Positions 20,508 through 43,866 of a DNA stretch of 64,000 nt are shown here, piece by piece. The notes beneath the pieces are model-generated. The model did no database searches and was not told the DNA's origin. It was given only the letters and a program-made list of their open reading frames with translations. The first letter of the stretch is position 1, and each line of letters starts with the position of its first letter. The translations under genes were made by a program, and so were the position numbers. Source of the DNA: Escherichia phage CMSTMSU; sequence record MH494197.1. One strand, 5' to 3'.

Positions 20508-20825
20508 TTAAACCGTAATCAAGTACTTTAATAAGTCCATTACGATCCCGCCGATATTCTGTTTTCTGATATCTCTTATCGTTAGTGTTGATAATGTATC
20601 ATCGACGTGTTGTAGTGCATCAGCAAAGCGGTGCTGGCGTTCAATGGCATTACGTTTAATATTGTACTTTAATTCATTGCACGCGTTTACGTGCTTTACA
20701 CTGCCTTTACTTGCAGTACTCAACCGATCCATAACGATAAACATATTATCAGGATCGCATAAATGCATATGCACCTTTGCAAAGTACTGTTTCAACTGAG
20801 GGCGGTCATAGTCTAAAAATTCCAT
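20508..20825 (-). CDS. hypothetical protein (105 aa)
   Basis: Track ORF, minus-strand block. Confidence 0.5.
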   Translation of the reverse strand: MEFLDYDRPQLKQYFAKVHMHLCDPDNMFIVMDRLSTASKGSVKHVNACNELKYNIKRNAIERQHRFADALQHVDDTLSTLTIRDIRKQNIGGIVMDLLKYLITV

Positions 20826-20891
20826 ACCTTACATTCAGTTTCATTTTGTTCGACACCCGCATCACAATTCGCGACCTTAATCACTAACCGA

Positions 20892-21080
20892 TCATTTAAA
20901 GCGAAAACTATACGGGAAGATCCGCCCGATGATCTCCAGTCCAGCTAACCGACAAGCTGAAAGGATCTCTTTGTTGGTTTCCATTTCTGACAGTGTACGG
21001 ATGAATTTAGTATAATTACGCATTGCATGTTCTCCTTGAGTTAATGAAACTATATTACAGTACTTTACTATCAATGGCAA
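20892..21080 (-). CDS. hypothetical protein
   Basis: Track ORF. Confidence 0.4.
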   Translation of the reverse strand: MPLIVKYCNIVSLTQGEHAMRNYTKFIRTLSEMETNKEILSACRLAGLEIIGRIFPYSFRFK

Positions 21081-21296
21081 CTACTTTTTAACATTAACGG
21101 CGTGAATCACTTCCTTAGTGTTTTTAGTACTGAATACTTTCGCCGCTCCTTGTTCGACCGTGATACGATAGCGACCATTAACATCAACCATATTAATAAA
21201 GTCCGGCGTGCTGAATGGTGTTGTTTTGCATTTGAGTACTGTTAACAGTTCCACCAGCGATGTAGTTTCTTTGATACGTTTTTCTAAAGTAATCAT
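21081..21296 (-). CDS. hypothetical protein (71 aa)
   Basis: Track ORF, tightly abutting the neighbouring gene. Confidence 0.5.
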   Translation of the reverse strand: MITLEKRIKETTSLVELLTVLKCKTTPFSTPDFINMVDVNGRYRITVEQGAAKVFSTKNTKEVIHAVNVKK

Positions 21297-21434
21297 TTTG
21301 TTTCTCCCCGTGTTGGTATGTACATATAGTACTAAAACATTTGAGTACTGTCAATTAGATAATATTATATTTCTTAAAATAAAATGCGTCTTGTGTTGGT
21401 TGATACTCGATACCGTTACCGTTATTGACTTCAA

Positions 21435-21629
21435 CTAATAAACCTTTGTCAATAAGTTTTTAATAGTACGATACCCTTGTTGAAAATTGGTAAAATGTGA
21501 ATCATTACGAAAGGTATAACCGTGCTTAACTGCTTCATCAATAGTTTTCTTTTCGATTTTAGATAATTTCATTTTGTTTCTCCCGTGTTGGTATATGTAC
21601 ATAGTACTAAAACATTTGAGTACTGTCAA
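21435..21629 (-). CDS. hypothetical protein
   Basis: Track ORF; the likely start is the internal MKLSKIEKK. Confidence 0.4.
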   Translation of the reverse strand: MTVLKCFSTMYIYQHGRNKMKLSKIEKKTIDEAVKHGYTFRNDSHFTNFQQGYRTIKNLLTKVY

Positions 21630-22423
21630 CGTGATATTAGTTTTATTTTCTTATTGTATTGTTGATGCTCATAAAGGTTTATCTTTCCTGTGTTCTCGAT
21701 TACTATCCTGTTGTTAGTGTCCACATCGATTACACGCAGTTTCCGTTGCTTAACTTCCGGGTAATAGGTTACCATTAATAAACTCATTAGCAAGCTGTAC
21801 GGCCTTTGTGATGATTCTCTTCGGTGCTTTATAGTGTACCCGTAAGATGTTATCTTTATATAGTTGAACCTTAATCATTTTGTTTGTCCTATAAAAAGGC
21901 GGGAACTGATCCCGCCGTGTTGTTAGTACTGCAAGTTATTAGATAACCGGCGGCGTTTACTGTATACTGTTACACGATTACCCTTACGGTCGTGTCGGAT
22001 CTCTTTCTGGTTGCGAATCAGTTCACTTGGACGCTTAAGGTTTGCCGTGATCCGCGTGAGTCCATGCATTGGCATTTACCTGTACTTTGATATCAGAACC
22101 AGCGATAAACTCATCTTGTGCGTCAGTATTGCCGCCAGCATATCCGCTCGTTTTAGTTCTGCTGCTGTTAGTACTGGCTCAGGTGAATTCACAATATCAG
22201 AGATCTTTGAACTGTACGGCCCAGCGTTGGCCTTTCGGTGCATCTTTGCCCATGTCTTTAAATGCTGCTCCTTCCTCGCGTGCAACAATACGGGCAGCTT
22301 CACGGGTAGCGTAGAATTTAGTAATCATGGTATACATCCTATTAGTTAAGTTAGTACTACAAGTTAGAGTCTATTATAAAGTACTATCTGGGCAATGTCA
22401 AATAGTACTTTAAATGGATTCTA

Positions 22424-22624
22424 TTACATGTCTTTCTTACGTTTTACATCGTGGTAGCGAACTGTTATTTCTTTGTTGATCTCTTCCTCGATGCGGTGAA
22501 TAACTTTTTCTTTCGGGTTGAAACCTATAACGGTTTCTTTAATGATCTCAAGCCCGTGTATTCGCCTTGTGTACCGTAACCGTATGTAAAGGTTTCGTGT
22601 CCCGTGTCTTCCAGCGGTCGCCAA
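22424..22624 (-). CDS. C-terminal fragment of the preceding gene
   Basis: Overlapping same-strand ORF in a different frame. Confidence 0.35.
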   Translation of the reverse strand: MATAGRHGTRNLYIRLRYTRRIHGLEIIKETVIGFNPKEKVIHRIEEEINKEITVRYHDVKRKKDM

Positions 22625-22745
22625 TTAACGCAGACACGTAGCAAGAGTGGTAAGTATTGCCGTGTGAATCAGTCCACCGATTAACGTTAATGTCAAAGGA
22701 GGTTACAATTTTCAATTCTACTTTCTGGGCAAGGATCATAGCCAT
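22548..22745 (-). CDS. hypothetical protein with RWTDSHGNTYHSC motif (frame-disrupted; continues in 22424..22624)
   Basis: Motif shared with the gene at about 29.7-30.0 kb; starts after cassette 22765-22826. Confidence 0.4.
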   Translation of the reverse strand: MAMILAQKVELKIVTSFDINVNRWTDSHGNTYHSCYVSALIGDRWKTRDTKPLHTVTVHKANTRA

Positions 22746-22764
22746 TTTATTTCTCTCTTTTAGT

Positions 22765-22826
22765 TAGGAGGAACCATTCCCTCACTTGATGTAAACTATT
22801 ATACAGTACTAAGATACTTTGTCAAT
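22765..22826 (-). promoter_or_regulatory. sigma70-type promoter (TTGACA-N16-TATAAT) plus 5' stem-loop cassette
   Basis: Minus strand: TTGACA 22820-22825, TATAAT 22798-22803, then inverted repeat GGAGGAACC/GGTTCCTCC before the ATG. Confidence 0.6.
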
Positions 22827-22843
22827 ACTTATTTTTGGAAAGT

Positions 22844-23008
22844 TTACGCATTAATTCTACGCTTTCTTGTGAACGTTTTGCTACCGGCAAGCTGCATGGG
22901 TAGTAAACATTTTGTATAGTCTGACGCTTTGCCACCGAACCGAGCGGCACGTTCACGGGCACTTGGAACTAATACTATTTCTTTCTTGCAGATAGTGCAC
23001 TTAGCCAT
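22844..23008 (-). CDS. hypothetical small protein (54 aa, MAKCTICKKE…)
   Basis: Hand-translated; below the track cut-off; ATG directly after a promoter cassette. Confidence 0.4.
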   Translation of the reverse strand: MAKCTICKKEIVLVPSARERAARFGGKASDYTKCLLPMQLAGSKTFTRKRRINA

Positions 23009-23666
23009 TTTATTTCTCTCTCTTTGTTAGAGGGGAACCGTTTCCTCACTCGATGTAAACTATTATACAGTACTAAGATACTTTGTCAATACTTAATTAT
23101 TGTAAATGTCGTGAATAGTGATAAAGTTTTTACGACCGTAAACCTGCAAATCAATATCAATGTAGTGCTTATCTAGTACATCCTCGACGCTTAACGCGGT
23201 GTCGTGGATATCTTCGTAGAATTGAGTATCTACAATCTTGCTTAAGTCATCCGGCGTTAACTCATCGTTAAGCAGTTGAACCGCCGGATATCTGCTTCAC
23301 GTTTCCAGTCTTCCAGTTAGTAGTCAGTACTTGTTCGATTTCGTTAGCTGTCAGTAGAATCCGCATTTTTATGTTTCCTTATCAGTGGTTGATGTAAGTA
23401 TTATACTCGTTTACTTTCTATTGTCAAACTATTTTATCAGGGAGTTTTTCGTATGTCTTACTCGACTACTTAACGGGGTTACTTGTTTCGTTCCCCGTCC
23501 TGATGTAAAACATTATACTTGATTCTAAGTACAATGCAAGTACTTTTTAAAAATAGTTTTCAGTACTAGCCACCAGCAAACAATAGATACATTTATGCAC
23601 CCTGTGGGCTGATTTGTTTCTATGCGTATATAATAGCAAAGGACTGAATCCCTTATTCAATTATTT

Positions 23667-23816
23667 TTAAACTTCTTTCGGGTTGCGATAGGTGATAGCG
23701 TTCGGGTACATTTGTTTAATGTTATTCCATGCCCGGTTGACATTGTAACCACTTGATCGAATCAGTTGGTTACTACCGACACCTTGAAACACTACTTCGA
23801 ATAAGAATTCTTTCAT
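23667..23816 (-). CDS. hypothetical small protein (49 aa)
   Basis: Hand-translated; SD GAGGTGA 6 nt upstream of ATG. Confidence 0.45.
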   Translation of the reverse strand: MKEFLFEVVFQGVGSNQLIRSSGYNVNRAWNNIKQMYPNAITYRNPKEV

Positions 23817-24351
23817 GCTTTCACCTCGCGATCTGCTTTACCTTTACGCCGACATTACTAATTGTTCGCGTTGCCATAAGTCGAGTGATACAAAAGTTTT
23901 GCGGTATCACTTTTAGGATACTCGCCATTAGTACCTAACCGATAAAACAGATCTTTCAGTACTGATAATTCTACTTGGATCATTATACTTTCTCTTTGTT
24001 GGGAGGGAACTATTCTTCCGATATAAAACATTATACACTTTATTCAGTACAAGTACTTTTAATCTTTCAGCCAATGATCCTGAATGAATTTTTCACCGGA
24101 ACCTTGCTGCATTGATTGTAACAGACGTTCACGATGAGCGGCGGCGAATTGCTCAGTACTATGCGTTACACCGGTTGATATCTGGATTCACCATTGGGGC
24201 TGATGTATTGTACATCCCACGGTTTTTCGTTAGTATCAGACCATTTACGAACGATTAGTTGACCTTGCATTTTTCTTTCTCTTAGTGGGGAGAATCATTT
24301 CTCCCCTTCATGTAACTTATTATACAGTACTAGATTATCTTGTCAATAGTT

Positions 24352-24636
24352 TTATTCACCTTGTTTGAATTTAGTTTTCTCCATTGATTCCATGATTGCA
24401 ACCAATACGCCGTGGATCTCGCTTAACGCGGAATCACTAAAAGCATTAATGAATAGTCGATCATTCTCGCGAATATTTTTAATGTACTTTTCAGCAGTAG
24501 TTGCGAATTCATTCAACGGTAGATCAAATGCTTTATCCCATGATGGATGGCGTAATTGTAACAGTACTGGATTATCACGATCACGGGAAAACGTACCAGT
24601 GATGAAACATACGCCCGAATACTTTCGAACTGGCAA
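24352..24636 (-). CDS. hypothetical protein (94 aa)
   Basis: Track ORF. Confidence 0.45.
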   Translation of the reverse strand: MPVRKYSGVCFITGTFSRDRDNPVLLQLRHPSWDKAFDLPLNEFATTAEKYIKNIRENDRLFINAFSDSALSEIHGVLVAIMESMEKTKFKQGE

Positions 24637-24994
24637 CGGACTTCCTTTGTGATAGTAGTATGAATGTACATTTATTGTTATCCTCTATTAAATTAATATT
24701 ACAGTTTATGAATCAATTCTTTATCTAAGCGATAGCGTACATTATTAATAGTAACGGCATTGTTTTAATGCTACGCTGTACAGGTCCACCAGCAATAACA
24801 AATGTTGCTTTATTACCCCGAACAATGATAGCACTTCCGTGATTACCGAAATCATCTTGTACTAAAATACTTGATAAGTTTTCCATTTTATTTCTCTTAG
24901 TAGGGAAGATGTTTCCTTGATGTAAGTACTATAACAGTACTGAAAACTAATTGCAAGTACTATGATAAAATCATGATAGGATATTCACTATCGA

Positions 24995-25279
24995 TCAGTA
25001 CCTCGAATCCGAACCCTTCGTACCATTCTTTAAGATTAAAGGCGTTATCTTCTCCGTATCGCATTCTAAGATGATACAATCTGAATCATCAGCGGCATCG
25101 ATAAAGGCATTCATTAATTCGTTACCTTCACCATTGCCCCGACTATCAGGATCAACATAAAGAGAATCAATGAAAGCAACACGGTCATAATCAAGATCCG
25201 GTGCAATGATTCCACGTTTAACAAACCAGTACTGCAATTGTGCTACTTTGCTGTACCTGATAACCAGTGATCTCGCCAT
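24995..25279 (-). CDS. GNAT-family N-acetyltransferase, central fragment (full frame-disrupted gene about 24971..25313)
   Basis: VAFIDSLYVDPDSRGNGEGNELMNAF resembles the GNAT acetyl-CoA-binding motif A; …LKEWYEGFGFEV continues in another frame. Confidence 0.55.
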   Translation of the reverse strand: MARSLVIRYSKVAQLQYWFVKRGIIAPDLDYDRVAFIDSLYVDPDSRGNGEGNELMNAFIDAADDSDCIILECDTEKITPLILKNGTKGSDSRY

Positions 25280-25462
25280 TGTCAGTAGTACGCGTGATAT
25301 GTTGTATTCCCATGATTTCTATCCTCAGTTAAGATATAAAACATTATACACTATCTTTCAGTACTGTCAATTACTTTTATCTCATAGATCTATGCCAACA
25401 ATTACGCGGATCTCTTTAAAAGTACTATCATGATCCTCCGGCAAGTAATACAATACATGCAC

Positions 25463-25630
25463 CTATAACGGCCCGGCGTCGATTCTCAGGGATTTTACCG
25501 CCGCAGTCGAGGCAATGTACAGTGATTCTCTTTGTGCGTTAATTTGCTTTCTAGCGTGGTTAACGGCGGCCTGAATCACTGCGTTAATCTCGTCTTGTTC
25601 GGCCCCGTCTTTCGCGAATCCTACAGCCAT
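25463..25630 (-). CDS. hypothetical small protein (55 aa)
   Basis: Hand-translated; MAVGFAKDGAEQDEINAVIQAAVNHARKQINAQRESLYIASTAAVKSLRIDAGPL. Confidence 0.4.
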   Translation of the reverse strand: MAVGFAKDGAEQDEINAVIQAAVNHARKQINAQRESLYIASTAAVKSLRIDAGPL

Positions 25631-25962
25631 TATTTTAACCTCATTATAAAAATACTATAGTACTGTAATGCTACAATAATACTACTAGTGCTAATCTTAT
25701 TCAAACCACATGATACTACATATCCACCAGCATTACCACGGATAGTAACGCCTTTGTACTGTCTATATAAATTCAACTGCGTATATTGCCTTTGATCAAG
25801 AATTGATCAGAATTATACGCCTTATGCTAAATTGATCCAGTACTTTTGATCATTTATTGATCGATGTTATATAGTTACATTTGTGCACCCTATGGGTTAG
25901 TGACGTTCTCGTCTTGATGTAAGTATTATGCCAGTACTGGAGGATATTGTCAATAGATTATT

Positions 25963-26160
25963 TTAATTTTTTCTATCATTAATTAATGCTTTCAGTACTA
26001 TACTAATAACTTGCAATGATTCATCAATGACAATGAAATTATTCTCTTTCATTAGATGATAGTTACCATTGATTGTATATTCTAACGAGTACTGTTTACG
26101 TTTAATTTTTGATAATGTTTCTATTTGTTTTTGTACTGATTTCATGCTAATCATTGTCAA
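25963..26160 (-). CDS. hypothetical protein
   Basis: Track ORF. Confidence 0.4.
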   Translation of the reverse strand: MTMISMKSVQKQIETLSKIKRKQYSLEYTINGNYHLMKENNFIVIDESLQVISIVLKALINDRKN

Positions 26161-26258
26161 ACGTCCTGTAACGCATTCTAACGAGATAAACGGTTGAGTA
26201 CTGGCATTGTATAGGGTAATGATTAAAGCCCACCAGCGTTAACCAGTGGGCTATAATC

Positions 26259-26402
26259 TTACATCTTGCGGATAATCTTAACAGTATCTTTCACCGATTT
26301 ACCGTTTTGCTGACATTGCTCGATCATCGCGTATTGTTCTGCGGTCAGATCCTCGCCAGTTTTTGCCAGTACTGCGTCGATGAATGAATCCAGTGCGATC
26401 AT
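26259..26402 (-). CDS. hypothetical small protein (47 aa)
   Basis: Hand-translated; followed by hairpin AGCCCAC…GTGGGCT. Confidence 0.4.
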   Translation of the reverse strand: MIALDSFIDAVLAKTGEDLTAEQYAMIEQCQQNGKSVKDTVKIIRKM

Positions 26403-28067
26403 TTTGTTTCTCTCTTAGGTTAAGTTAACTACTGTTTATAAAACTTATTATACAGTACTATCAAACTATGTCAATAGTACTGGTAATATATTTTAGCGGT
26501 AGTCGTCGTATGCTTTATTCACGGCGAATATAACTTTCAAAGGCTTCGTCTACCGTTTCATACTCCCGAACATAATCACCATATGAAACTACATACATAC
26601 CTTTTGATCTTCAAACGTCATGATGATAGAATCCAGACCAACGATTTCAGTTTTTGCGATGATAGCCATTTTTAATTCCTTAGTAGTGTAGTTGATAAAA
26701 GTTATTATGTCAGTACTATCAAACTATGTCAATAGTACTGTGATAATATTTTAGTTAATGATAGTCAGTGTAAAATTGTAATCCCCTGCCCGTATAGTAC
26801 TTTATCGCCGAACGTTCCAACACGTTTCATATTGCAATAGATACCCATAACACTTTTACATCTTTGATATTCCGAACGCCAGTAATATCCTTGTTTAAAT
26901 GATCGTGATCAGAAAATAAAACTTGTTTTGCATTTTTCAGTACAGTGCAGATATTAGCCATTTTGTTTTCTCTTCTGTTAGTGGGGAGAAGTTTTTCTCC
27001 CTTGATGTAAACTATTATACAGTACTATAATCTATTGTCAAACTATTTTTTATATTATTCGAAATCTTCTGGACCGGACTGATAATCATCTTCACCGTAT
27101 GCACTTTCTAACCGCTCGCCAGTGCAATCATCAGTTAGTGAGTCATCCTCATAGTTCACGTCTACGCCAGTGATGTAAAACTGGCTATCGTCTGGATCAT
27201 TGAAATTAATTTTCTGGATGTTTACAATAACTGTATTGATGCCGTGACACCGCCATCAGCCGTTACAAAGTACTGATATTTTTCACAACCGCCTGAATTG
27301 AAACCGTAATTAATTTCGGCCCGACCATCACTTAAACGCAGTGTCTGAGCGATGATTTCATTTTCAAAGTTAGATTGAGCAATTGCAATAGTCATGATTT
27401 GTTTCTTATTATCAGGGAAACCGTTTCCCTTTCGATGTAAAACATTATACGCTTATCAGGAAGTAATGCAAGTACTATTTCACGTTAATTTCAAAGTACT
27501 GCTCTTTGATGTTTTCCTGTTGGTAAATCTCGTTTAATGCTTTAAGATCTAAAACCTGTTTACCTGCTGCCTGAATATACTTTTAAGAGTCGCTAACAGC
27601 TTCTCAGGCGTGTTTGTAGTCTTACGTGTTGGGATCTTATCGTGCCCCATAGCGTAGTACTGCTTACGTGCTATAGTACTGATAACACTGCGGTACGGTT
27701 CCATGATCAGCTTGTCTGTATTCGTCGCTATCCCCAAACTTCATACCGTGGATCGCAAAGGTCATCATCATGCGGTCGTTATCGCGGATATTGTGGGGCA
27801 GTCGGCAAGCTCGCGAGTCAGTGACATAGTGATCCCCACGTCGCCACCCAGCGGTAAAGGTCGGGCGATAAAGAAACCGTTAGGGAATACTTTCAGGAAG
27901 TTTTCTTGAACTGCTGCGACGAATTCGATGCTATTCATAATTCATTTCCTTAATTAGTGGGGAAGTTGTTTCCTCTTGATGTAAAACATTATACGCCTAT
28001 TGAGATAGTTTGCAAGTACTTTCTACAAATACTTTTAAAATAGTTTTCAGTACTCAATACTCATATA

Positions 28068-28165
28068 ATAGATACACTTATGCACCCTGTGGGCTAGTGA
28101 GCTATCTCTCAATGAATATATAATAGCAAAATGGCTGACCGAGTCAACCACTTTTTCATTTATTT
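28068..28165. repeat. ~90-bp repeated intergenic element (copy)
   Basis: atagatacacttatgcaccctgtgggctagtgagctatctctcaatgaatatataatagcaaaatggctgaccgagtcaacc. Confidence 0.55.
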
Positions 28166-28271
28166 TAGCTTTTAGAATCGCCGCCTTTCGCGTCATGCCT
28201 TGCTTGATGTATTCTGTACTTTCGCTTTACGTGCATTCGCTTTATTTGCTTTCGTAAACGCCGAACAACTT

Positions 28272-28529
28272 TTATAGTTTAAACCTGTTGGATTCATTTA
28301 AATCACCATAAAGAATAGATAGGTTACTAACAACGCCGCGATCAATGCACCGACCGAACTGTAATAAGCTAATGATCTCATTTTTAGCCTGAAAATAATG
28401 TTTAATTTGAGCGGCGGTCAGTGCACAATTACGCAGGAAGTTTTCTGTATAACTTTTGCGAGTACTGAAAGAGAATTGACCTTTGCTGCTGCCGATAGTA
28501 ACATCAAACCGAGCGTTGTATTGTTTCAT
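28272..28529 (-). CDS. hypothetical protein (85 aa, start MKQYNARF)
   Basis: Track ORF trimmed to the ATG that follows the promoter cassette (ggagaaacaaaATG). Confidence 0.45.
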   Translation of the reverse strand: MKQYNARFDVTIGSSKGQFSFSTRKSYTENFLRNCALTAAQIKHYFQAKNEIISLLQFGRCIDRGVVSNLSILYGDLNESNRFKL

Positions 28530-28544
28530 TTTGTTTCTCCTGTT

Positions 28545-28625
28545 ATTGGGGAGAATCATTTCTCCCTTCATGTAAAACATTATACAGTACTAAAACTAAT
28601 TGCAAGTACTATTTTTAGATTTACG
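28545..28625 (-). promoter_or_regulatory. promoter + stem-loop cassette (copy)
   Basis: …ttgcaattagttttagtactgtataatgttttacatgaaGGGAGAAatgaTTCTCCCC… followed by ATG 28529. Confidence 0.55.
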
Positions 28626-29691
28626 CAAACTTTCTACCATCTCAGGAGTAAGGTCTGCGGGTAGGAAACTACTTCATCAACGAAACGTAAAGGAATACCC
28701 CAGCGAAAGGTGAACGTGCTTTCTTAGTATTACTCTTTTTGATGCTTTCATTTCATATTCTTAATTAGTGGGGAGAATCATTTCTCCCTTCATGTAAAAC
28801 ATTATACGCGTTTAAAACTAATTGCAAGTACTATTTGAAAGTAAATGCTCATACGCTACATTAACTACGTTTTCAATAACCGACTGTACAGAAAGATCCC
28901 CACTTCCGGCTATAGTAGAAATCGCTTACAGTAGTGTCATCGTATGCAAATACTTTACCGTGACTGCATCAATCACATACATATTAACCTTTAAGATGTC
29001 GATCTTATCCTGTACAGTAAGCATATTAATTAACCTTTTAAGTACTGACTTAAGTAATCTTGTTGATCTTCGGTGATTGCAGCCATCTTCCCTAGTACTG
29101 GATTAATGATATAATCCCTGTAACGTCCTGTAACGCATTCTCAGGCGGTTTAACGGCTGGGGTAGCCATAGCCATTGCCGACTTGTTCGACGCTGTAACG
29201 CTCATAAAGGCGGCATTCTTCCGGTGTTAACATAGCATCAATGCGTTTCATTGGTTTAATGATGCTTTCGATCTCATTCAGTACTTGATTAACGTTCATG
29301 GTATAATCCCAATATAAGCGGCCTAAATCGACCGCTAACGATGTTTTGATTAATAGGTGTATGGTTGACGTTCAAACAATGATTGCACGTTGTACGCCCC
29401 GCTTATGGGCTTTGCTGGTAAATCAATTTTATATTGTTCACGCTTAAAGATAATAAAACGGCAATTGTTTTAACATCAAAATTGATTGAACGTTCCGAGT
29501 TTACCATCGTGCACAAATACAAGATAACCGCTCGCTACTTGTTTTGTAGTACTGGTTGCAACCATAGACCGCCGAACATGTGTACCTGCGTCGATTAAAG
29601 TACTGATATTTTTCATTTTACTATCCTCTTAAGTTGATTTAATTTCTTTCCCTATGCAGACACTGTACCAAAGTATCTGCATAAAGTAAAG

Positions 29692-29973
29692 CTAATTAAA
29701 GATCTTTTTACGTTTTACATCCTGTACAGTACAATGCAACGGGATAGACAAATCATTGCACAAACGATAGAGGGAGGTTTCATCAGTATTAAGCCCGTCT
29801 ACTGATTCCTTTAAGAGAGATAACGCCGTTTGTTGGTATGCATCTTCATAGCCATAAGTAAATGATTCAACCGCCAGATCATTCAAGCCGTTATCCAGTT
29901 CGACGCTTACATGACAAGAATGATGTATTGCCATATGAATCAGACCAACGTTTACCGTCAACATTGATTGCAC
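29692..29973 (-). CDS. hypothetical protein (fragment; paralog of 22548..22745)
   Basis: An upstream frame encodes …VDGKRWSDSYGNTS…, the same motif as the 22.6-kb gene. Confidence 0.4.
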   Translation of the reverse strand: MQSMLTVNVGLIHMAIHHSCHVSVELDNGLNDLAVESFTYGYEDAYQQTALSLLKESVDGLNTDETSLYRLCNDLSIPLHCTVQDVKRKKIFN

Positions 29974-30338
29974 GGATTGCAGCCGAAACGGTGTTAATGA
30001 TAGTTTTAGCCATTTTAGTATTCCTTAAATTAATATGTGTCGTCTTGATAAAATCTATTATGCCAGTACTATCAAACTATGTCAATAGTACTGTGATAAT
30101 ATTTTTACTTACTTTTTGCTTTCTTTATTGCTTCCACCGGTCGGCCCATTCTTTACCCCATACTTGTAAATTATAATGGTACTGGCAAAGTGCAACGCCC
30201 CGCTTTAAACCAGTAATAGATTTTTACCACATTGACAAGTTTTCATTTTAGTTTCCTTGTAGTGGGAGAACCATTTTCCCCTTGATGTAATGTATTATAC
30301 TTTATTCGATTTACTTTGCAAGTACTTTTTAATTTAAT

Positions 30339-30551
30339 TCATCCGTAAAGGATACGCTCAACGCCCAAATCAGTTAAACTAATCGACGGCACTTGATAGG
30401 TTTCAATGTATGCTACACTTGCCCACTGACCGAACTCATTAACGGCCGTATTCATTGCATTTTGCAATTCCACACCTTCCTTGTTGGTAATGACTGCAAC
30501 TACTTGTTCGTTGCCAGTAGTACCAGATACGCGAGTAATGATAATAGCCAT
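30339..30551 (-). CDS. hypothetical protein (70 aa)
   Basis: Track ORF directly downstream of a promoter cassette. Confidence 0.5.
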   Translation of the reverse strand: MAIIITRVSGTTGNEQVVAVITNKEGVELQNAMNTAVNEFGQWASVAYIETYQVPSISLTDLGVERILYG

Positions 30552-30619
30552 TTTTTAATTCCTATTCAGTAGTTGATGTATGTATTATGCCAGTACTTAA
30601 AACTATTGTCAAACTATTT

Positions 30620-30772
30620 TTAAAGTTTATCAATGATTGATGCCGTTTCATTGATAGTCTTGCCGTGTTTTGCACACGCGATAACTGCTTTAAATTCCTT
30701 TGATGACCAATCTTTCTTACTGCATACTGACATTACTTGTAAAGTAAAACAATCCAGTTCATAAGTATTCAT
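30620..30772 (-). CDS. hypothetical small protein (50 aa)
   Basis: Hand-translated; MNTYELDCFTLQVMSVCSKKDW…. Confidence 0.4.
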   Translation of the reverse strand: MNTYELDCFTLQVMSVCSKKDWSSKEFKAVIACAKHGKTINETASIIDKL

Positions 30773-30985
30773 CTTTATATCCTCAGTTAGTTAAGGTGTC
30801 TGCCTTGATGTAATTAATTATACGCTAATCTCTTAATCGTGCAAGTACTTTTATTACTTTTTGCAAAATACTTTAAACGCTCTCAATCGCATTACAACGA
30901 CCTTAACGCCACCAGCTAGGCAATGCATCAGATAATCAGTTTAAAGCGTTAGAATCGTTTCTAGGCGGTGCTGGTGGCGTAAACG

Positions 30986-31015
30986 ATAAAAAAAGCCCAC
31001 CGTTTAAGGTGGGCT
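30986..31015 (-). terminator. rho-independent terminator (minus strand)
   Basis: Minus-strand AGCCCACCttaaacGGTGGGCT followed by TTTTTTTAT; 13 nt after the stop of 31028..31261. Confidence 0.6.
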
Positions 31016-31027
31016 AGTGATTCAGTT

Positions 31028-31261
31028 TTATGCTTCAACTTTGCGATGAGCTTCGATCCATTCCTCGCGAGTCATACCACTGGAGTTAATCGCGTCCAGT
31101 ACTACCGCAATGCAGTTACCACGCACCGGAATCAGATATTCTTCCCGTTGTACTACCGCTACGCGTTCCTGAATCCATTTTTGGCTTTTACTTCTGGCTT
31201 GTCTTCCCATACTTAACCGCCGTGGCTTTTGTGCCATCTCTGTAACTACTTCCAGATCCAA
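31028..31261 (-). CDS. C-terminal part of the preceding gene
   Basis: Overlapping frame; ends 13 nt before terminator hairpin. Confidence 0.4.
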   Translation of the reverse strand: MDLEVVTEMAQKPRRLSMGRQARSKSQKWIQERVAVVQREEYLIPVRGNCIAVVLDAINSSGMTREEWIEAHRKVEA

Positions 31262-31406
31262 CTACTGCCGCCTGAATACTTTCGATTGTTGCTTGTAGTT
31301 CTGCTTCACGGGCCGCCTTTGCCGCTTCAATTTCTGCCGCTTTATTTGCTTGTAGTTCTTTCGCAGTACTGTAAGCGATGTTAAAATTATTGCGTACCGC
31401 TTTCAT
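31188..31406 (-). CDS. hypothetical protein, Ala/Glu-rich N-part (frame-disrupted; continues in 31028..31261)
   Basis: Overlapping same-strand ORFs; gene followed by a terminator. Confidence 0.4.
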   Translation of the reverse strand: MKAVRNNFNIAYSTAKELQANKAAEIEAAKAAREAELQATIESIQAAVVGSGSSYRDGTKATAVKYGKTSQK

Positions 31407-31691
31407 GGTATCGTTATCCAGTTCAGCCGGATCTCAGCCGCGACGTTAGTTTCATTTGCACCAGTGCTTTGATGAATGATTTTACATTAGCCATTTTATA
31501 AATCCTCAATTAAAGTTTAGTTTACGTTTATTAGTGTATCAAAGTTTTCTGACGTGTCCAGTTTTTCGTTCGACTTACTGGCGGTCTACTTAGTGCTCCC
31601 CGTCTTGATGTAATACATTCTACGCCTTTTTGCGGTAATGTCAACTACTTTCTTAAAACTATTTTCAAAGTATCTCAGTACTACGATACTA

Positions 31692-31717
31692 CAAAACAAA
31701 AAGCCCACCCGTGGGCT
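31692..31717 (-). terminator. rho-independent terminator (minus strand)
   Basis: Minus-strand AGCCCAC-GGGTGGGCT hairpin followed by TTTTTGTTTT. Confidence 0.5.
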
Positions 31718-31979
31718 GTATTAATCAGTAAGTAAAATATTAAACACTTTACCATTTAACGTTATTGGTGCACTGCTACCGTGCTCAAGATCCGTTAGTA
31801 TACCTGCAATCGCTTTATCATTGGCGACCTTTCCAGTGTCCAACAGTACGACAGTACTGATAAGATTAACGCTCGTTTCAATATCATAATGCACGGCGTT
31901 AAGGAGTTGTGTATACTGCTTTCGTTAAGTAAAACTATTCGTGCTGTCATGATGTACCCGTAGTATCTATCAACGGCAA

Positions 31980-32267
31980 TTAATAACGCCGGAATGCGTT
32001 ACTTTCAGTATCCATAACAGTGACCGAACCGCGTTTAGTACTTGCATCGTAATAAATTGTCGTGCTACCTTTTTCGTCTTCTTCATGGAACGGCCCGTTT
32101 TTAAATGCTTCTGGCTGGATCTCTAAATCCTTTAAAACAATCTCGCCAGTACTTTCATTGGTCATCGCTACAGTGCACTGAATGAATTTTTCACTACTTA
32201 CATCTAACGACGCATTAACAGCGAAAGAGGAAACAGATAAAGCCGTGGCGATGATTGCAATTTTCAT
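31980..32267 (-). CDS. small secreted/periplasmic protein with N-terminal signal peptide
   Basis: MKIAIIATALSVSSFAVNA-SLD: hydrophobic core plus AxA cleavage-like site. Confidence 0.55.
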   Translation of the reverse strand: MKIAIIATALSVSSFAVNASLDVSSEKFIQCTVAMTNESTGEIVLKDLEIQPEAFKNGPFHEEDEKGSTTIYYDASTKRGSVTVMDTESNAFRRY

Positions 32268-32677
32268 TTGATTATCCTTAGTTACGGGAACCGCTCTTGC
32301 GATGTAAAATATTATACAGTACTAAAAACTATTATCAAGTACTTTATGATTTTTATAAAACATTTCAGCAGTGATATTTTACCCGTTGGCTGTACTTTAT
32401 CCAGAATTTTTGATGTCCGGCCGTCCAAATGAATATGATCCGTAAACCGTAAACCAGTAGTTACCCTCAGTGTTTACATGTACAGCATAATAGGGAACGC
32501 CCGCGATTCATCACTAGTAAAGTGTGCTACCGTTCCGTTACATTCGCAGACGTTGATTTGATTTGTTCAAGCATTTTATTATTCCTTAGTTACCGTGGGA
32601 ACTGCTCCTATGCAAAACATTATACGCGTTTAAAACTAATTGCAAGTATTTTAATAAAAGTATTTGAAAAATAGTTG

Positions 32678-32706
32678 TTGACAAGTGCATCCAGTACTGG
32701 CATAAT
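32678..32706 (+). promoter_or_regulatory. plus-strand consensus promoter (TTGACA-N17-CATAAT)
   Basis: TTGACA 32678-32683, CATAAT 32701-32706; faces a terminator about 100 nt downstream. Confidence 0.4.
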
Positions 32707-32712
32707 TACTAC

Positions 32713-32815
32713 ATCAAGACGAAACAGTCACTAACCCACCGGGTGCATAGATCCGTCTATTAAATGATTCAGTACTGAAAAGTAACGGGAGTTATTATCT
32801 CCCCGTTGTTATTTT
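32713..32815 (+). ncRNA. candidate small RNA (promoter to terminator, about 100 nt)
   Basis: No ORF; ends with hairpin AACGGGAG-ttattat-CTCCCCGTT + T-run; contains the repeated GCACCCxxTGGG element in inverted orientation. Confidence 0.25.
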
Positions 32816-33029
32816 GTGGTATAAACAGAAGTCGCCTTTATTTGCTACGCCGCCAGTGTAACGCGAGGAATAGTCACCCGACTTCTGCTATTACCAGTGT
32901 ATCATCATTCAATTCGCGCAAACGGCTGGATCTTGTACGCCGATTTTGTCGGCATGTTCCCGCATAGATTTAACCAGTGCTTCCAGTTGGGAAAGAGTAG
33001 TGATATTAGCCATTGTATTTTCTCATTAC

Positions 33030-33100
33030 CGTGGAGAACCATTTCTCCCTTTGATGTAAAACATTATACAGTACTGAAAACTAATTGCAAGTACTTTTTA
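33030..33100 (-). promoter_or_regulatory. promoter + stem-loop cassette (copy)
   Basis: Same conserved TATAATGTTTTACATCaa + GGGAGAA/TTCTCC module. Confidence 0.5.
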
Positions 33101-34750
33101 ATATTGTTTGTCGTCGTCTTCCTCGATGAATTGACCGACGAAATGATCTACTTTCGCTTTGAGGCTTTTATAATCTTCTTCTACTTCCTTTAAACGTTCC
33201 GTAGTATTCCAGTGCCTCAACATATGCGGCCTCAGCCGTTTTCTCACGCATAGCTAAATTCATTCCACGCGTTTCATCAAATAGCCAAAACCATCGGTGC
33301 ATTCACTGATAGACAATGATTTGTTTAACACATTGTACTTTATTACTTTACTCATTAGATAACCTCAGTAAAGGCGGGAACTATTACCCGCCTCGATGTA
33401 AAGTATTATACGCTTTTAAACTTAGTTTGCAAGTACTTTTAAATTAATATTCGATTGATTCTACTACGCCATCAATAACATTGAATTGATACTCGTTTCA
33501 ATCAGTGCCGTAATGTTTTCCAGTAGTGAATTGATCCTCATATGCATTCTCTAAATCACGGTACAACTTGCGGGACAATTCACGAATAGTGTCAGTGAGT
33601 AGTTCCTCAAGCTCATTAACTAACGTTTTTGTTTTGCGGTTAAATCCAGTGTAAGCCGATTCAATGTACCCGCTTACAGTATTCTTGAGTAGTGGGAGTG
33701 CGAACGCTTTACACTCATCGCCAAACCATCTTCATTCAGCAAGTGACGGATTGAGCGATTAGTTAATGCTTTACCTTGCGTAAAACTTCACTGCGTCAAC
33801 GTGGTCAGTACTGATTGATGCACCGTCCCCGGGACCAAAAGCCACTGAATCGTAAATCAGCGTCATTAATGCCATATTCCGGTAGTACTGTTTCAGTATT
33901 CATTTCACTTTCAGAAAAATAATCATCGTTTAAGTTTTTTCACGTTCCCGAACCAGTTCGATAGCTGACGTTTGTTGTTCTGCGTTCAATTCAGAAAAAT
34001 CCATAACGAAAGTAGTAGTAGTGATAGTTTTCATTTTGTAACCCTCATTCAGTAGTTGATGTAAGTATTATACGCTTTAAAAACGTCAAACTATTTTATC
34101 AGGGAGTTTTGTGCCTATTCCTCGGCTACTTAACGGAAGTTACTTATTTGTTCCCCGTCCTGATGTAAAACATTATACGCCTTTAAACATAGTTTGCAAG
34201 TACTTTTAAAAATAGTTTTCAGTACTGAATATTAAAAAGTATTGACAGCATTATCAGTACTAATATAATTCCCATGACAACAGCTAACCCACGGTGCAAT
34301 TGTAACTGTAATAAACTTTTTCTAGATACACTTCCGCACCCTATGGGCTACGGCTTATCTGCCAATGAATACATTATGCCAGTACTGACAAAATAAGTCA
34401 ATACCGGCAATTGTAAAGATTTGTAAACTGCTTATACTGCAATCGCGTCCGTGCTATAATAATAATAAGTGCTATGGTGTGACTTACCTTTTATTTCAGT
34501 ACTGAATGAATCCGAACGATTTGCATATGATGTTAATTTAAAGTACTTTGATTTGTTGATACGTTACACCACAGATCCGCGTAAGTAGTTTTATTAGTGG
34601 TAGTATCTTTACGGTTTTAACTTCAGTCATATACATATTAGTCATTTTTATTACTCCGAGTTATAGGGGAACTATTCCCGCTCTCGATGTAAAACATTAT
34701 ACGCTTTTAAACTTAGTTTGCAAGTACTTTTATTCAAGTACTGCAATCTT

Positions 34751-34975
34751 TTAGTACGGTACACGGTCACGCGGTTGCTTTCGGTCGAGCTTTATTTCTA
34801 CCACTCGACGCGATACACTATCAGGACTTTTCAACGCCGCTAACCAGTACTGTAATGATCTGGCTGTACTACGCTTTACAATGGCCCAACGTTTACCACG
34901 TTCCGATTGTACGCCCATATCTTTAAACGTTGCCCGTCCGGCGTGCTGCGATCCGAGCTTGTTCACGCGTCGCAA
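34751..34975 (-). CDS. hypothetical basic protein
   Basis: Track ORF. Confidence 0.4.
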   Translation of the reverse strand: MRRVNKLGSQHAGRATFKDMGVQSERGKRWAIVKRSTARSLQYWLAALKSPDSVSRRVVEIKLDRKQPRDRVPY

Positions 34976-35348
34976 AATACTTAATATTCATGTTGTTCTT
35001 ATCGTTGGTGTATGAATAAACACTATTATAAAGTACTATCATCGTGCAATAGTACTTTAAATCTATTCTATTACATTCCAACCATTGCAGCACGGATCGA
35101 TAGTGCTATATTTGAATCCGTCCGGTGTTTTTCTTGTCCAGTCTGTTCTAAAAAATAACATCATATGACGGGCCGCATCATTGCGATTAGTGCTATCGTT
35201 AATAAAGTCCCAACTGGTATAATGATTCATCGTTATTAATCCAAAGGCTTACATTCCAATGAGTTTTGTTTTTGTGACCTAAGAACATTTTGATTTAGCC
35301 ATTTTTAATCTTATATAGTGGGGAACTATTTCACCCTGATGTAAAACA

Positions 35349-35576
35349 TTATACGCTTTTAAACTTAGTTTGCAACTTTATTAAACTTATTTGTAATTTT
35401 GCACTGTCAGCCCATACTGTGAAACGATGCATATTATCCCATGCATCTTGTTTTAAATTTAAACTGTGCAATTCCTCAGTAGTTGCTATCCCCATTGGCT
35501 TACTACACACCGCGAAATTTTTCTCCATGTACTGATAAACCATCGTTAAATCATTTGAGATCATTACATGGATCAT
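35349..35576 (-). CDS. hypothetical protein
   Basis: Track ORF. Confidence 0.4.
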   Translation of the reverse strand: MIHVMISNDLTMVYQYMEKNFAVCSKPMGIATTEELHSLNLKQDAWDNMHRFTVWADSAKLQISLIKLQTKFKSV

Positions 35577-36130
35577 TGAATCAGCTATGAAGTAGCGTAT
35601 TGTTCACGCACGGCAACGGTTCCCGATAAGCTGTAAATGTGAATTTTACAGTTTCAGCCGGAAGACCTTTCATTTCACGGAAGTTAACCGTGTTAAGCAT
35701 GATTTTATTGATTTGAGTCGCCATCGTTTTAATCTCTTAATGTAGCGGGAAGTGTTCCTGCCTCGATGTAAAACATTATACGCTTTTATCAGTATGCAAG
35801 TACTTTCTACAAATACTTTTAAAATAGTTTTCTCTATATAGGGAACTATTATTCAGTACTGCAACCATCCGTGGGAACTATCTTTCTATAGTAGTACTAT
35901 TATTCAGTACTGAATCAATCCACCAAATCATCCTGATACCCGTAAAACGGCCTCAGACGCATTCTAACGCATTAATACACCTAAGCTATACATTTGCACC
36001 ATTCCAATCTTGGCTGGGCCGTTTAAACGCGTTAAATTATTTTCAATTATTTTGTTTTAGCTATTGACTCAGTACTAAAAAGCGTATAATTACACATAGA
36101 CGCGAGAAAGGAAACCAGAGGGTGCGGAAT

Positions 36131-36644
36131 TACGCCCAAAATTCAAGATATAAAAAAAGGATACACCGCACCCTAGCAGGTTAACGCACTTTCTAGTACT
36201 GAAATATAGTAACATAGTCCGCTGATAGCAAGCAATTAAAACTTTTTCATCCGGTATTGCTTTATTTTTCCAGTACTGTATAATAGTTCCATCGTCGAGA
36301 AAGACTCAGCCCACCGTATAGTTACGCCCAAAATTCAGTACTGAAAATTTTAAAAATATCCGTCCGTGCGCGTTGTTCCCCCAGTTTATAAGATAATGAT
36401 TCCAGACTCCAGAACGGTTCATCCCACGCGGTAGGGGAACTATTGGAAAACAAAATAAAATTTTGATTTAGCCGTCTATACTTCCAGACGTGTAACCATC
36501 TAGCCGTTTAGCTGTCCAAACGTCAGCCATCCAGCCATCCAGAAATCTAGCCGTTTAGCCGTCCAGATGGATAGCCATTTCCAGACTTCTGAGGGCTAGA
36601 CATATCTACGTCCAAAATCCATCCGTGGTAACTACGCCCAAAAT
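36131..36644. repeat. dispersed 12-bp motif TACGCCCAAAAT (3 exact copies + 1 variant)
   Basis: Exact at 36131, 36323, 36633; variant TACGTCCAAAAT at 36607. Confidence 0.5.
36500..36566. repeat. direct repeats CTAGCCGTTTAGC(T/C)GTCCA x2
   Basis: Copies at about 36500 and 36548, with AGCCATCCAGCCATCCAG between them. Confidence 0.5.
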
Positions 36645-37380
36645 CCGTCAGTACTATACCATAGATCATCTTTGGAGTATTCAGTACTGCCATCAGCCCC
36701 TCACATGTTACCCTAGGAGGATGAAGATCACCGCGGTACTGAATACTGTTAGAGGGAATCCACCAGCTTGGTGGTATAATCGTTTAGATTAAAATCAGTA
36801 CTGACACCATTCTGTTAATATCAGTACTGTTATTGATTTTCATATGAGGTTCAAAAAGATGTACCCACCACAGGAGGAACTATCTTTTCTGTACTGTCTC
36901 ACAGGAGGTAGAGTAAATGAATCGTTCGCAACTCATCTCTATGTAGAACATTATACAGTACTGAATCATAATGTCAATAGCTTTCTTTCATTATTCAGTA
37001 CTGATATTCTTGAGAACTACCCGACTACAAACATCATTATATCCCACAAATCATAAACGTCCCAACGTAAATTTCAACTTTCGAAGATCCAACTTTATTT
37101 CATAGGTACTCCAAAATTTTAGGATCGAGATTTAGGATGGAGTACTAACCAACTTTTGCTGAGCTCTGGATATTAAGGTGAAAGTAATAATTCAGTAATT
37201 AATCATTGGTGATTACTTTTGATTACATTTGATGTAATTTGCAAAATGGAAAAGGAGCTTGAAACTAGTACGGCAGACTTCCTCTGCCTACTAGGTGCTG
37301 GTTTCATCTATCGGAGGGAAATGGATTAACCTTAGCAATACGTAACTGAATACGTTCTTGATTAAACGTGCACATTCCTG

Positions 37381-43645: not shown

Positions 43646-43866
43646 ATTTGTTCACCAATACATTAACACTTATAAATTACAATCCAGATACCGCCTCGTT
43701 GTATACGTGCACAAACTTCAGTGTTGTGTATGATGGTAATGAAACTATTGCTGTAAGTGGTAGTCCTACATATGTACCGAGGGCGTTGCCGCTAATAGAT
43801 GGACTACAATTCCATTACCCAAGTAATACTATGCCAGTACTTGATGCTGGCTTTTCTTTTGATTAA
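43642..43866 (+). CDS. RCC1-like unit 1 C-terminal fragment
   Basis: Frame continues through the terminator hairpin, so probably frame-disrupted. Confidence 0.35.
   Translation: MNLFTNTLTLINYNPDTASLYTCTNFSVVYDGNETIAVSGSPTYVPRALPLIDGLQFHYPSNTMPVLDAGFSFD
43833..43860 (+). terminator. rho-independent terminator
   Basis: GCCAGTActtgaTGCTGGC hairpin + TTTTCTTTT. Confidence 0.6.

What the first reader, a model, noticed from the sequence alone, without database searches (positions are those of the whole stretch)
31980..32267. Small protein with a classical signal peptide among otherwise cytoplasmic-looking early genes
MKIAIIATALSVSSFAVNA followed by a hydrophilic 76-aa body suggests Sec-dependent export to the envelope of a Gram-negative-type host, which could fit a superinfection-exclusion or receptor-masking role. 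The minus-strand terminator at 31692-31717 lies about 260 bp downstream, with another small ORF between.
Basis: inference. Interest (0 to 1): 0.35.

Follow-up and report, generated by a model that had tools for sequence, protein, structure and literature searches.

The report
Exported small protein of jumbo phage
This is a real, conserved early gene of a 121Q-type jumbo coliphage that encodes a small protein almost certainly exported to the periplasm; its function is unknown, its label "spackle" in one relative is not supported, and its last codons in this window are corrupted by a probable sequencing deletion.

Summary
The ORF at 31980-32267 (minus strand) exists and has its own sigma-70 promoter, a Shine-Dalgarno site and a downstream terminator. 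The window is an Asteriusvirus (121Q/PBECO4-like) jumbo coliphage. The gene lies about 5.3 kb from the genome end, inside the ~21-kb direct terminal repeat of early genes.

Export is strongly supported. The N-terminus has the n/h/c layout with a VNA|S cleavage site. Of 29 family members, some below 30% identity, 28 keep a signal peptide and three carry a lipobox. A cysteine pair (C31, C98) is invariant. dN/dS is 0.06-0.2.

All ~40 orthologues are 99 aa. The window has a 2-bp deletion that replaces the last 11 residues, including invariant G94 and C98. The window carries about 20 times more deletions than insertions against relatives, and about half its genes are frameshifted, so this is most likely a sequencing error.

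The repaired mature domain models at pLDDT 91 as a six-stranded antiparallel beta meander, with the conserved cysteines on its first and last strands. No informative match turned up in PDB, Pfam, NCBIfam or PADLOC. T4 Spackle shares only the signal peptide.

A superinfection-exclusion or envelope-protection role is plausible but untested. Interest is modest.

The parts
32311..32338 (-). Sigma-70-type promoter, TTGATA (32338-32333), 16-nt spacer, TATAAT (32316-32311). It is part of a repeated early-promoter cassette.
   Evidence: 11 of 12 match; the core AGTACTGTATAATATTTTACATC has 11 copies, all on the minus strand and all between 17978 and 36962, where 0 are expected by chance.
32275..32279 (-). 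Shine-Dalgarno sequence AAGGA, 7 nt upstream of the ATG.
   Evidence: Read directly from the sequence. Identical in relatives.
31980..32267 (-). The ORF as it reads in the window: 95 aa, with its last 7 codons out of the family frame.
32211..32267 (-). Codons 1-19, the Sec signal peptide MKIAIIATALSVSSFAVNA, with predicted cleavage VNA|SL.
   Evidence: Heuristic n/h/c scoring. The feature is conserved in 28 of 29 family members. The Muenster homologue carries a SignalP-based annotation.
31970..32210 (-). Mature domain, 80 aa once the deletion is repaired, ending at the family stop codon TGA (31972-31970). Predicted as a six-stranded antiparallel beta meander with conserved C31 on the first strand and C98 on the last.
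   Evidence: AF2 pLDDT 90.9, pTM 0.74. Invariant C31, G94 and C98. dN/dS 0.06-0.2.
32004..32007 (-). Site of the 2-bp (GA) deletion relative to all orthologues. It shifts the frame and replaces KVTHSGVINCR with SNAFRRY.
   Evidence: DNA alignment. All 31 close tblastn hits stop aligning at residue 88. The window-wide deletion bias is shown.
31721..31950 (-). Co-transcribed downstream gene, 76 aa in BF17 and fEgEco12. In the window it is split into two frames by a 1-bp deletion at about 31913/31914. Function unknown, and the gene is not conserved next to homologues in 121Q or EJP2.
31692..31717 (-). Intrinsic-terminator-like hairpin AGCCCACGGGTGGGCT followed by TTTTGTTTTG, ending the two-gene unit.
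   Evidence: Annotated as a terminator in phage UE-S1.

Best explanation
This is the orthologue of a conserved 99-aa pre-protein of Asteriusvirus jumbo coliphages (121Q gp276, fEgEco12 g10, PHROG 31669).

What is shown:
- The gene lies about 5.3 kb from the left genome end, inside the ~21-kb direct terminal repeat.
- It has its own copy of a repeated sigma-70 early-promoter cassette and shares a terminator with one downstream gene.
- It is under purifying selection.

What is inferred with high confidence:
- Host RNA polymerase transcribes it early.
- The Sec pathway exports it, and signal peptidase I cuts after Ala19.
- The 80-aa mature domain folds in the periplasm as a six-stranded antiparallel beta meander. 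The invariant Cys31 and Cys98 lie on the first and last strands, and I expect them to form a disulfide.

What is inferred with low confidence:
- No polar residue is invariant. Only Cys, Cys and Gly are. It is therefore more likely a binding or blocking protein than an enzyme.
- Its most likely job is to alter or guard the envelope of the already infected cell against further phage attack. That would be superinfection exclusion or protection from lysis from without, working like T4 Spackle/Imm or T5 Llp but with an unrelated fold.

In this window the 3' end is corrupted by a 2-bp deletion that removes the last strand, G94 and C98. That deletion is most likely one of many deletion-type sequencing errors in the window, not biology.
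For: Identity and context:
- 90-95% DNA identity to Asteriusvirus phages.
- PHROG 31669, E = 3.7e-54.
- The homologues in Muenster, vB_Ec-M-J and fENko-Kae01 also lie in annotated terminal repeats.
- Promoter, terminator and Shine-Dalgarno site; promoter cassette in 11 copies.
- In the related phage PA5oct, many terminal-repeat genes are highly transcribed early (PMC7318152).

Export:
- Signal peptide n/h/c layout plus the -3/-1 rule, conserved in 28 of 29 members.
- Lipobox in three members; cysteine count in the mature part always 2 or 4.
- C31, G94 and C98 invariant.
- An E. fergusonii member is named 'putative periplasmic lipoprotein' by its source.

Real gene: dN/dS 0.06-0.21.

Fold: pLDDT 90.9, six strands.

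Envelope-related neighbourhoods in prophage-like elements:
- Flanking genes with signal peptides or a lipobox.
- An overlapping 140-aa gene whose product has several hydrophobic stretches, read from the sequence only.
- An LprI-domain protein with a hydrophobic N-terminus two genes away.

Deletion artefact:
- Searches show the two deletions.
- About 40 of 77 genes are frameshifted in the window.
- 364 deletions against 43 insertions.
- 159:8 for fEgEco12 against the window, compared with 7:12 in the control pair of good genomes.
Against: There is no experimental or homology-based evidence for any function.
- No match to Spackle beyond the signal peptide.
- Nothing significant in Pfam, NCBIfam or PADLOC.
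- PDB by sequence: nothing.
- No partner gene is conserved across phage groups.
- Overall purifying selection gives no sign of an arms race.
- No dedicated signal-peptide predictor was available.
- The disulfide is inferred from conservation and strand assignment. I did not have the model coordinates and measured no distance.
- The early timing is inferred from promoters and from a related phage, not measured for this one.
Confidence: 0.4

Rival explanations
1. It is a Spackle protein, as annotated for the orthologue in phage fEgEco12. On this reading it is a periplasmic inhibitor of the lysozyme carried by the tail of a superinfecting phage, either homologous to T4 gp61.3 or a functional analogue of it.
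For: GenBank annotates fEgEco12 g10 as 'protein spackle'. Size, early expression, signal peptide and a cysteine pair all resemble Spackle: T4 Sp is a 97-aa precursor with a 75-aa mature form and a C29-C81 disulfide (PMC7677548; sequence). One chromosomal family member lies two genes from an LprI 'lysozyme inhibitor' domain protein.
Against: Profile comparison aligns only 17 signal-peptide columns. Pfam T4_Spackle matches one of 29 members, at E = 0.27. Spackle is an alpha-helical bundle, whereas this family is predicted all-beta. No similarity was found to MliC, and Ivy and PliC families are absent from the Pfam hits. Homology is therefore rejected. Functional analogy is untested.
Confidence: 0.12
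2. It is a receptor-jamming exclusion factor of the T5 Llp / T1 Cor type. It would bind an outer-membrane receptor from the periplasmic side so that further virions cannot bind.
For: It is a small, early, exported protein. Three distant family members are lipoproteins. Llp acts from the periplasmic face of FhuA (PMC9586334).
Against: The window protein and all jumbo-phage members lack a lipobox. The gene is not next to a receptor-binding-protein gene; it sits among terminal-repeat early genes. The PHROG scan found no match to an annotated exclusion-lipoprotein family.
Confidence: 0.1
3. It acts for the phage's own infection rather than against competitors. Possibilities are neutralising a host periplasmic or envelope defence or stress response, stabilising the envelope during the long jumbo-phage cycle, or helping to complete DNA entry if the terminal repeat enters first, as in T5 two-step transfer.
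For: The location in the terminal repeat with strong host-type promoters resembles the T5 pre-early region; that resemblance rests on my own knowledge of T5. The family is shared by several large virulent myovirus groups.
Against: The family also occurs in prophage-like elements and in a chromosomal island. That distribution fits a portable accessory gene better than a core infection function. There is no evidence of two-step injection in these phages.
Confidence: 0.15
4. It is a periplasmic component of lysis timing, a sensor or antiholin partner like the periplasmic domain of T4 RI.
For: It is exported and small. In prophage-like elements it lies shortly upstream of terS, where lysis cassettes often sit.
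Against: No holin, endolysin or spanin was recognised next to it. In jumbo phages it is in the early terminal repeat, not a lysis module.
Confidence: 0.08
5. The frameshift is real, and in this particular phage the gene is a decaying pseudogene or a truncated variant lacking the last strand and the disulfide.
For: The deletion is 2 bp within GAGA, not a simple homopolymer. Other truncated variants exist in databases: P0008 at 56 aa and a 61-aa BFVD entry.
Against: After repair, the downstream frame is intact to the family stop and still encodes G94 and C98. The window has a roughly 20:1 excess of deletions over insertions, and about half of all genes are frameshifted, which is not compatible with a viable phage.
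Confidence: 0.12

Closest known systems
T4 Spackle (gp61.3, Pfam PF25676)
   Same: Both are early phage genes of about 97-99 codons with a Sec signal peptide. Both give a soluble periplasmic mature protein of about 75-80 aa with one conserved cysteine pair.
   Different: There is no sequence similarity outside the signal peptide. Spackle is an alpha-helical bundle (PMC7677548), whereas this protein is predicted all-beta. No lysozyme target is known here.
T5 Llp / T1-phi80 Cor exclusion lipoproteins
   Same: Both are small, early, exported proteins acting in the periplasm. A few distant family members carry a lipobox.
   Different: The window protein has a signal peptidase I site and no lipobox. 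It is not adjacent to a receptor-binding-protein gene. No sequence similarity was found.
Bacterial periplasmic lysozyme inhibitors (MliC/PliC, Ivy, LprI)
   Same: Both are small exported beta-rich proteins with a disulfide. One family member has an LprI-domain neighbour.
   Different: hhalign against E. coli MliC gives 14% probability, over the signal peptide only. My recalled MliC sequence was verified against PDB 2f09. There are no Pfam hits to these families. This protein has six strands rather than the eight-stranded barrel of MliC; the MliC strand count is from my own knowledge.
PHROG 31669 (function unknown) / 121Q gp276 / Muenster gp039 'putative secreted protein'
   Same: It is a direct member: E = 3.7e-54 over the full length, with 76-98% identity to Asteriusvirus orthologues.
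   Different: The window copy has a frameshifted C-terminus, 95 aa against 99 aa.

Membership tests
Sec (signal peptidase I) signal peptide | Positively charged n-region, an uncharged hydrophobic h-region of 8-15 residues, and small residues at -3 and -1 of the cleavage site | tested here: met
   MK / IAIIATALSVSSFA / VNA|S. The same layout appears in 28 of 29 homologues. This is my own heuristic, not SignalP.
Sec (signal peptidase I) signal peptide | Actual export and cleavage in vivo | not testable with these tools
   This needs PhoA or Bla fusions, cell fractionation, or N-terminal sequencing or mass spectrometry.
PHROG 31669 | Full-length profile match | tested here: met
   E = 3.7e-54, residues 1-92 on profile positions 1-92 of 99.
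T4 Spackle (PF25676) | Sequence homology of the mature domain | tested here: not met
   hhalign aligns only signal-peptide columns 1-17. The Pfam T4_Spackle hit is at E = 0.27, in one of 29 members.
T4 Spackle (PF25676) | Compact alpha-helical bundle fold | tested here: not met
   The AF2 model (pLDDT 90.9) has six beta strands and one 4-residue helix. The Spackle fold is as described in PMC7677548.
T4 Spackle (PF25676) | Binds and inhibits the tail lysozyme (gp5) | not testable with these tools
   No complex prediction or assay was available.
Llp/Cor exclusion lipoproteins | Lipobox with +1 Cys (signal peptidase II substrate) | tested here: not met
   The window protein and all jumbo-phage members have no lipobox. 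Only P0019, P0022 and P0023 have L[ST]GC.
Llp/Cor exclusion lipoproteins | Gene adjacent to the receptor-binding-protein or tail-tip gene | tested here: not met
   All neighbours are small hypothetical early genes of the terminal repeat.
MliC/PliC lysozyme inhibitors | Sequence or profile similarity to MliC (PF09864) | tested here: not met
   hhalign probability 14%, covering the signal peptide only. No Pfam hit.
Periplasmic disulfide-bonded protein (general class) | Conserved, even number of cysteines in the exported part | tested here: met
   C31 and C98 are invariant in 29 sequences. The count is 2 or 4 cysteines in every mature domain. The window copy itself has lost C98 through the deletion.

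The most novel reading that the evidence does not exclude
The family would be a previously unrecognised kind of periplasmic exclusion or envelope-guard protein. It would be a small beta protein carrying a conserved cysteine pair, carried in the first-entering terminal repeat of jumbo phages and shared with rV5-like phages and prophage-like elements. It would block a step of secondary infection, such as a peptidoglycan hydrolase, a receptor or the DNA-entry machinery, using a fold unrelated to Spackle, Imm, Llp or Cor.
Probability: 0.3. Interest if true: 0.55.

Novelty: new member of a known kind. Interest (0 to 1): 0.3.

Why it matters
Jumbo phages of the 121Q/Rak2 group carry hundreds of unannotated early genes in their terminal repeats. 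In this ~27-kb stretch, this is the only gene clearly aimed at the cell envelope.

If the family proves to be an exclusion or envelope-protection factor, it would add a new fold to a short list of understood periplasmic phage proteins. It would also matter for designing phage cocktails, because it bears on cross-exclusion between jumbo, rV5-like and temperate phages.

Two practical points follow directly. The 'spackle' label in a published relative should not be propagated. This window's sequence has a deletion-biased error pattern that breaks many ORFs, which affects every other finding read from it.

Tried and rejected
- **Pfam, NCBIfam and PADLOC scans of the protein and all 29 family members.** These returned only sub-threshold hits driven by the signal peptide.
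- **PDB by sequence and by profile.** Nothing was found.
- **AF2 on the window's own 95-aa sequence with a 12-sequence alignment.** This gave pLDDT 56 and was not usable. It should not be read as an effect of the frameshift, because the alignment was shallower and included the signal peptide.
- **Spackle homology.** Rejected.
- **MliC similarity.** Rejected.
- **Search for a conserved partner gene across phage groups.** None was found. The 76-aa downstream gene is absent next to the 121Q and EJP2 orthologues.
- **PHROG scan of prophage neighbours.** Uninformative apart from terS.
- **IMG/VR scan.** The first alignment was too divergent to search with. The second found a single locus.
- **Possible tandem paralogue upstream of the L020 homologue.** It aligns in register, including both cysteines, but the match is not significant (probability 3%).
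- **Upstream neighbour in E. fergusonii.** Not related to the family.
- **Literature searches for the family or the PHROG.** Nothing was found. The fEgEco12 paper does not discuss the spackle label.

Full report
**Observation.** The minus-strand ORF 31980..32267 (95 aa, ATG start) is present and begins MKIAIIATALSVSSFAVNA. Upstream are AAGGA at 32279-32275, 7 nt from the ATG, and a promoter-like site with an 11-of-12 match, TTGATA-16-TATAAT, at 32338-32311. Downstream, a terminator-like hairpin with a T-run lies at 31717-31692, 263 bp past the stop, with one small gene in between.

**Where the window comes from.** The region is 90-95% identical to Asteriusvirus jumbo coliphages such as BF17, fEgEco12, PBECO4 and phAPEC6, and more distantly related to 121Q.
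- The orthologue in fEgEco12 is g10, at 5284-5583. That places it inside the 20,993-bp direct terminal repeat, which that paper confirmed with PhageTerm and restriction digests (PMC13070987).
- Homologues in vB_Ec-M-J, Klebsiella phage Muenster and fENko-Kae01 also lie within annotated terminal repeats.
- Window 1-11000 maps to fEgEco12 26.5-37.7 kb, and window 43.8-62 kb maps to the region just before the right repeat. The repeat therefore occupies roughly 16.5-37.5 kb of the window.
- Within that span, a conserved promoter cassette (AGTACTGTATAAT..TTTACATC) occurs 11 times, always on the minus strand, where 0 are expected by chance. This gene has one copy of it.
- In the related jumbo phage PA5oct, many terminal-repeat genes are highly transcribed early (PMC7318152). 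Early expression here is an inference from these facts, not a measurement.

**The gene is real.** It matches PHROG 31669 (function unknown) at E = 3.7e-54. About 40 phage records encode an orthologue. Pairwise dN/dS among six orthologues is 0.06-0.21.

**The 3' end in the window is corrupted.**
- Every orthologue is 99 aa and ends ...MDTEKVT[HF]TGVINC[RLFK]. The window reads ...MDTESNAFRRY.
- DNA alignment shows a 2-bp deletion, ACTGAGAAAGT -> ACTGAAAGT. When the two bases are restored, the frame runs to the family stop at 31970-31972 and encodes KVTHSGVINCR.
- The downstream 76-aa gene is also split, by a 1-bp deletion.
- This is not local. Of 77 BF17 CDS, about 40 are spread over two or three frames in the window.
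- Against BF17, the window has 364 deletions and 43 insertions in 27 kb, about half of them in homopolymer context.
- fEgEco12 against the window gives 159 deletions to 8 insertions in 8.3 kb. The control pair, BF17 against fEgEco12, gives 7 to 12.
- I conclude that the window carries deletion-biased sequencing or assembly errors, and that the true product is almost certainly the 99-aa form. I estimate about 0.85 for an artefact and about 0.12 for a real frameshift.

**Evidence for export.**
- A simple n/h/c and -3/-1 scoring gives MK / IAIIATALSVSSFA / VNA|S, with cleavage after residue 19.
- Among the 77 annotated proteins of the equivalent BF17 region, this is the only convincing signal peptide. 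One other protein has a marginal score and one has a transmembrane segment.
- An exhaustive profile search of 1.8 billion representative proteins found only 24 family members.
- With phage homologues from tblastn, the family covers Asteriusvirus, Alcyoneusvirus (Muenster), the Salmonella Munch/7t3 group, Erwinia phage Hallingskeid, Vequintavirinae (UPEC06, A5-4), a 153-kb IMG/VR phage, prophage-like elements of E. fergusonii and Enterobacter, and a chromosomal island.
- Across 29 aligned members, some at 25-30% identity, 28 keep a signal peptide by the same scoring. Three have a lipobox, L[ST]GC. The mature part always has 2 or 4 cysteines.
- The only invariant residues are C31, G94 and C98. 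That pattern is what a disulfide-stabilised periplasmic protein would show.
- The Muenster homologue is annotated 'putative secreted protein' from InterPro/SignalP. An E. fergusonii member is named 'putative periplasmic lipoprotein' by its source.

**Structure.**
- AF2 on the window's 95-aa sequence with a shallow alignment was poor, at pLDDT 56.
- On the repaired 80-aa mature domain with 30 sequences it gave pLDDT 90.9 and pTM 0.74. The model has six antiparallel strands in meander order and one short helix, and the last strand (mature residues 71-79) carries the C-terminal cysteine.
- The window's frameshift would delete that strand.
- Foldseek on PDB gave nothing below E = 1e-3. BFVD returned only family members.
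- I had no model coordinates, so the Cys-Cys geometry is inferred, not measured.

**Comparison with known systems.**
- *T4 Spackle.* The fEgEco12 record labels the orthologue 'protein spackle'. The paper does not discuss this label. T4 Spackle is a 97-aa precursor whose 75-aa mature form is an alpha-helical bundle with a C29-C81 disulfide, and it inhibits the gp5 tail lysozyme (PMC7677548). Profile comparison of T4 Sp with the family aligns only the 17 signal-peptide columns. Pfam T4_Spackle appears once among 29 members, at E = 0.27. The predicted fold is all-beta. Membership is rejected. Functional analogy is neither supported nor excluded.
- *T5 Llp.* This is a lipoprotein encoded next to the receptor-binding protein, and it jams FhuA from the periplasmic side (PMC9586334). 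The window protein has no lipobox and no such neighbour.
- *E. coli MliC.* My recalled sequence was verified against PDB 2f09. It does not resemble the family.
- PADLOC and NCBIfam gave nothing meaningful.

**Context clues to function (weak).**
- No neighbouring gene is conserved across phage groups.
- In prophage-like elements the homologue lies a few genes upstream of terS, among other genes with signal peptides or a lipobox.
- In one element it overlaps a 140-aa gene whose product has several hydrophobic stretches. I read this from the sequence and did not score it for membrane segments.
- In that same element it is preceded by a possible divergent paralogue. The alignment is in register, but the match is not significant.
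- In a chromosomal island it lies two genes from a protein with a hydrophobic N-terminus and an LprI 'lysozyme inhibitor' domain, scoring 29 bits against a cutoff of 22.
- Only structural residues are invariant, which suggests a binder rather than an enzyme.

**Most likely mechanism.** The protein is made early from the terminal repeat by host RNA polymerase. It is exported by Sec, cleaved after Ala19 and oxidised in the periplasm to a compact beta domain. There it binds an envelope or incoming-phage component, so that the infected cell resists further attack. I rate export at about 0.9. I rate the envelope-guard or exclusion role as a whole at about 0.4. The specific target is unknown. The rivals are listed in the Rival explanations section, each with its own probability: a Spackle-like lysozyme inhibitor, Llp-like receptor jamming, a pro-infection envelope or anti-defence role, and lysis timing.

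**Verdict.** The functional reading is reasonable but unproven. This is an uncharacterised family of a familiar kind, a small exported early phage protein, so the interest is modest. The most useful by-products are the correction of the ORF's 3' end, the rejection of the 'spackle' label, and the recognition that the window's sequence is riddled with deletion errors.

Noticed in passing
window 10100-37300 (measured); probably the whole window: The window has a strong deletion bias against all close relatives: 364 deletions to 43 insertions over 27 kb against BF17, and 159 to 8 against fEgEco12, compared with 7 to 12 in a control pair of good genomes. About half the deletions are in homopolymer context. 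About 40 of 77 genes are split across frames. This is likely an error-prone assembly, so any ORF-based reading of this window should be checked against relatives.
   Followed up: yes
window 17978-36962, minus strand (11 sites, e.g. 19484-19506, 22788-22810, 32301-32323, 33053-33075): A highly conserved early-promoter cassette, AGTACTGTATAAT[AG][TG]TTTACATC, is repeated 11 times on one strand only and is confined to the terminal-repeat region, where 0 copies are expected by chance. More copies are probably hidden by the indel errors. It explains the recurring 'DVKHYTVLKT'-like peptides in spurious plus-strand ORFs.
   Followed up: partly
window 31721-31950 (-): The gene co-transcribed downstream, 76 aa in BF17 and fEgEco12, is split into two ORFs (31795-31950 and 31721-31894) by a 1-bp deletion at about 31913/31914. 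It is absent next to the orthologue in 121Q and replaced by a different gene in EJP2.
   Followed up: partly
window 32283-32300 (-); L001 and L002 equivalents: Relatives have a 7-bp G/C hairpin (GGGGGAGCGGTTCCCCC, -14 kcal/mol) in the 5' UTR between the promoter and the Shine-Dalgarno site. In the window it has collapsed to GAGCGGTTCCC through deletions in the G and C runs. The fold is not unusual against shuffled sequences (z = -0.8), so its significance is unclear.
   Followed up: partly
L020 5503-6803; L008 7624-8693; L011 7618-8769; L021 5411-7632: In prophage-like elements and in one chromosomal island, family members sit in small clusters of other exported proteins. These include neighbours with signal peptides or a lipobox, a possible tandem paralogue, and an overlapping 140-aa protein with several hydrophobic stretches (read by eye, not scored). 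There is also a protein with a hydrophobic N-terminus and an LprI lysozyme-inhibitor domain. This looks like an envelope-directed accessory gene cluster.
   Followed up: partly
window 34751-35093 (-); L004 3317-3673; L018 4140-4481; L017 5065-5286: Several small early proteins appear to be shared between Asteriusvirus, Alcyoneusvirus/Munch-like jumbo phages and rV5-like phages. Examples are the 'ATRE.AR..A...G..FKDMG......RWA' motif and a 'KRW.DS.GNT' motif. This suggests a common pool of host-takeover genes.
   Followed up: no
window 43800-62000: This stretch matches genes annotated in relatives as regulator-of-chromosome-condensation (RCC1-like) or DNA condensation proteins, present in several copies. 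The matches are fragmented across many pieces.
   Followed up: no
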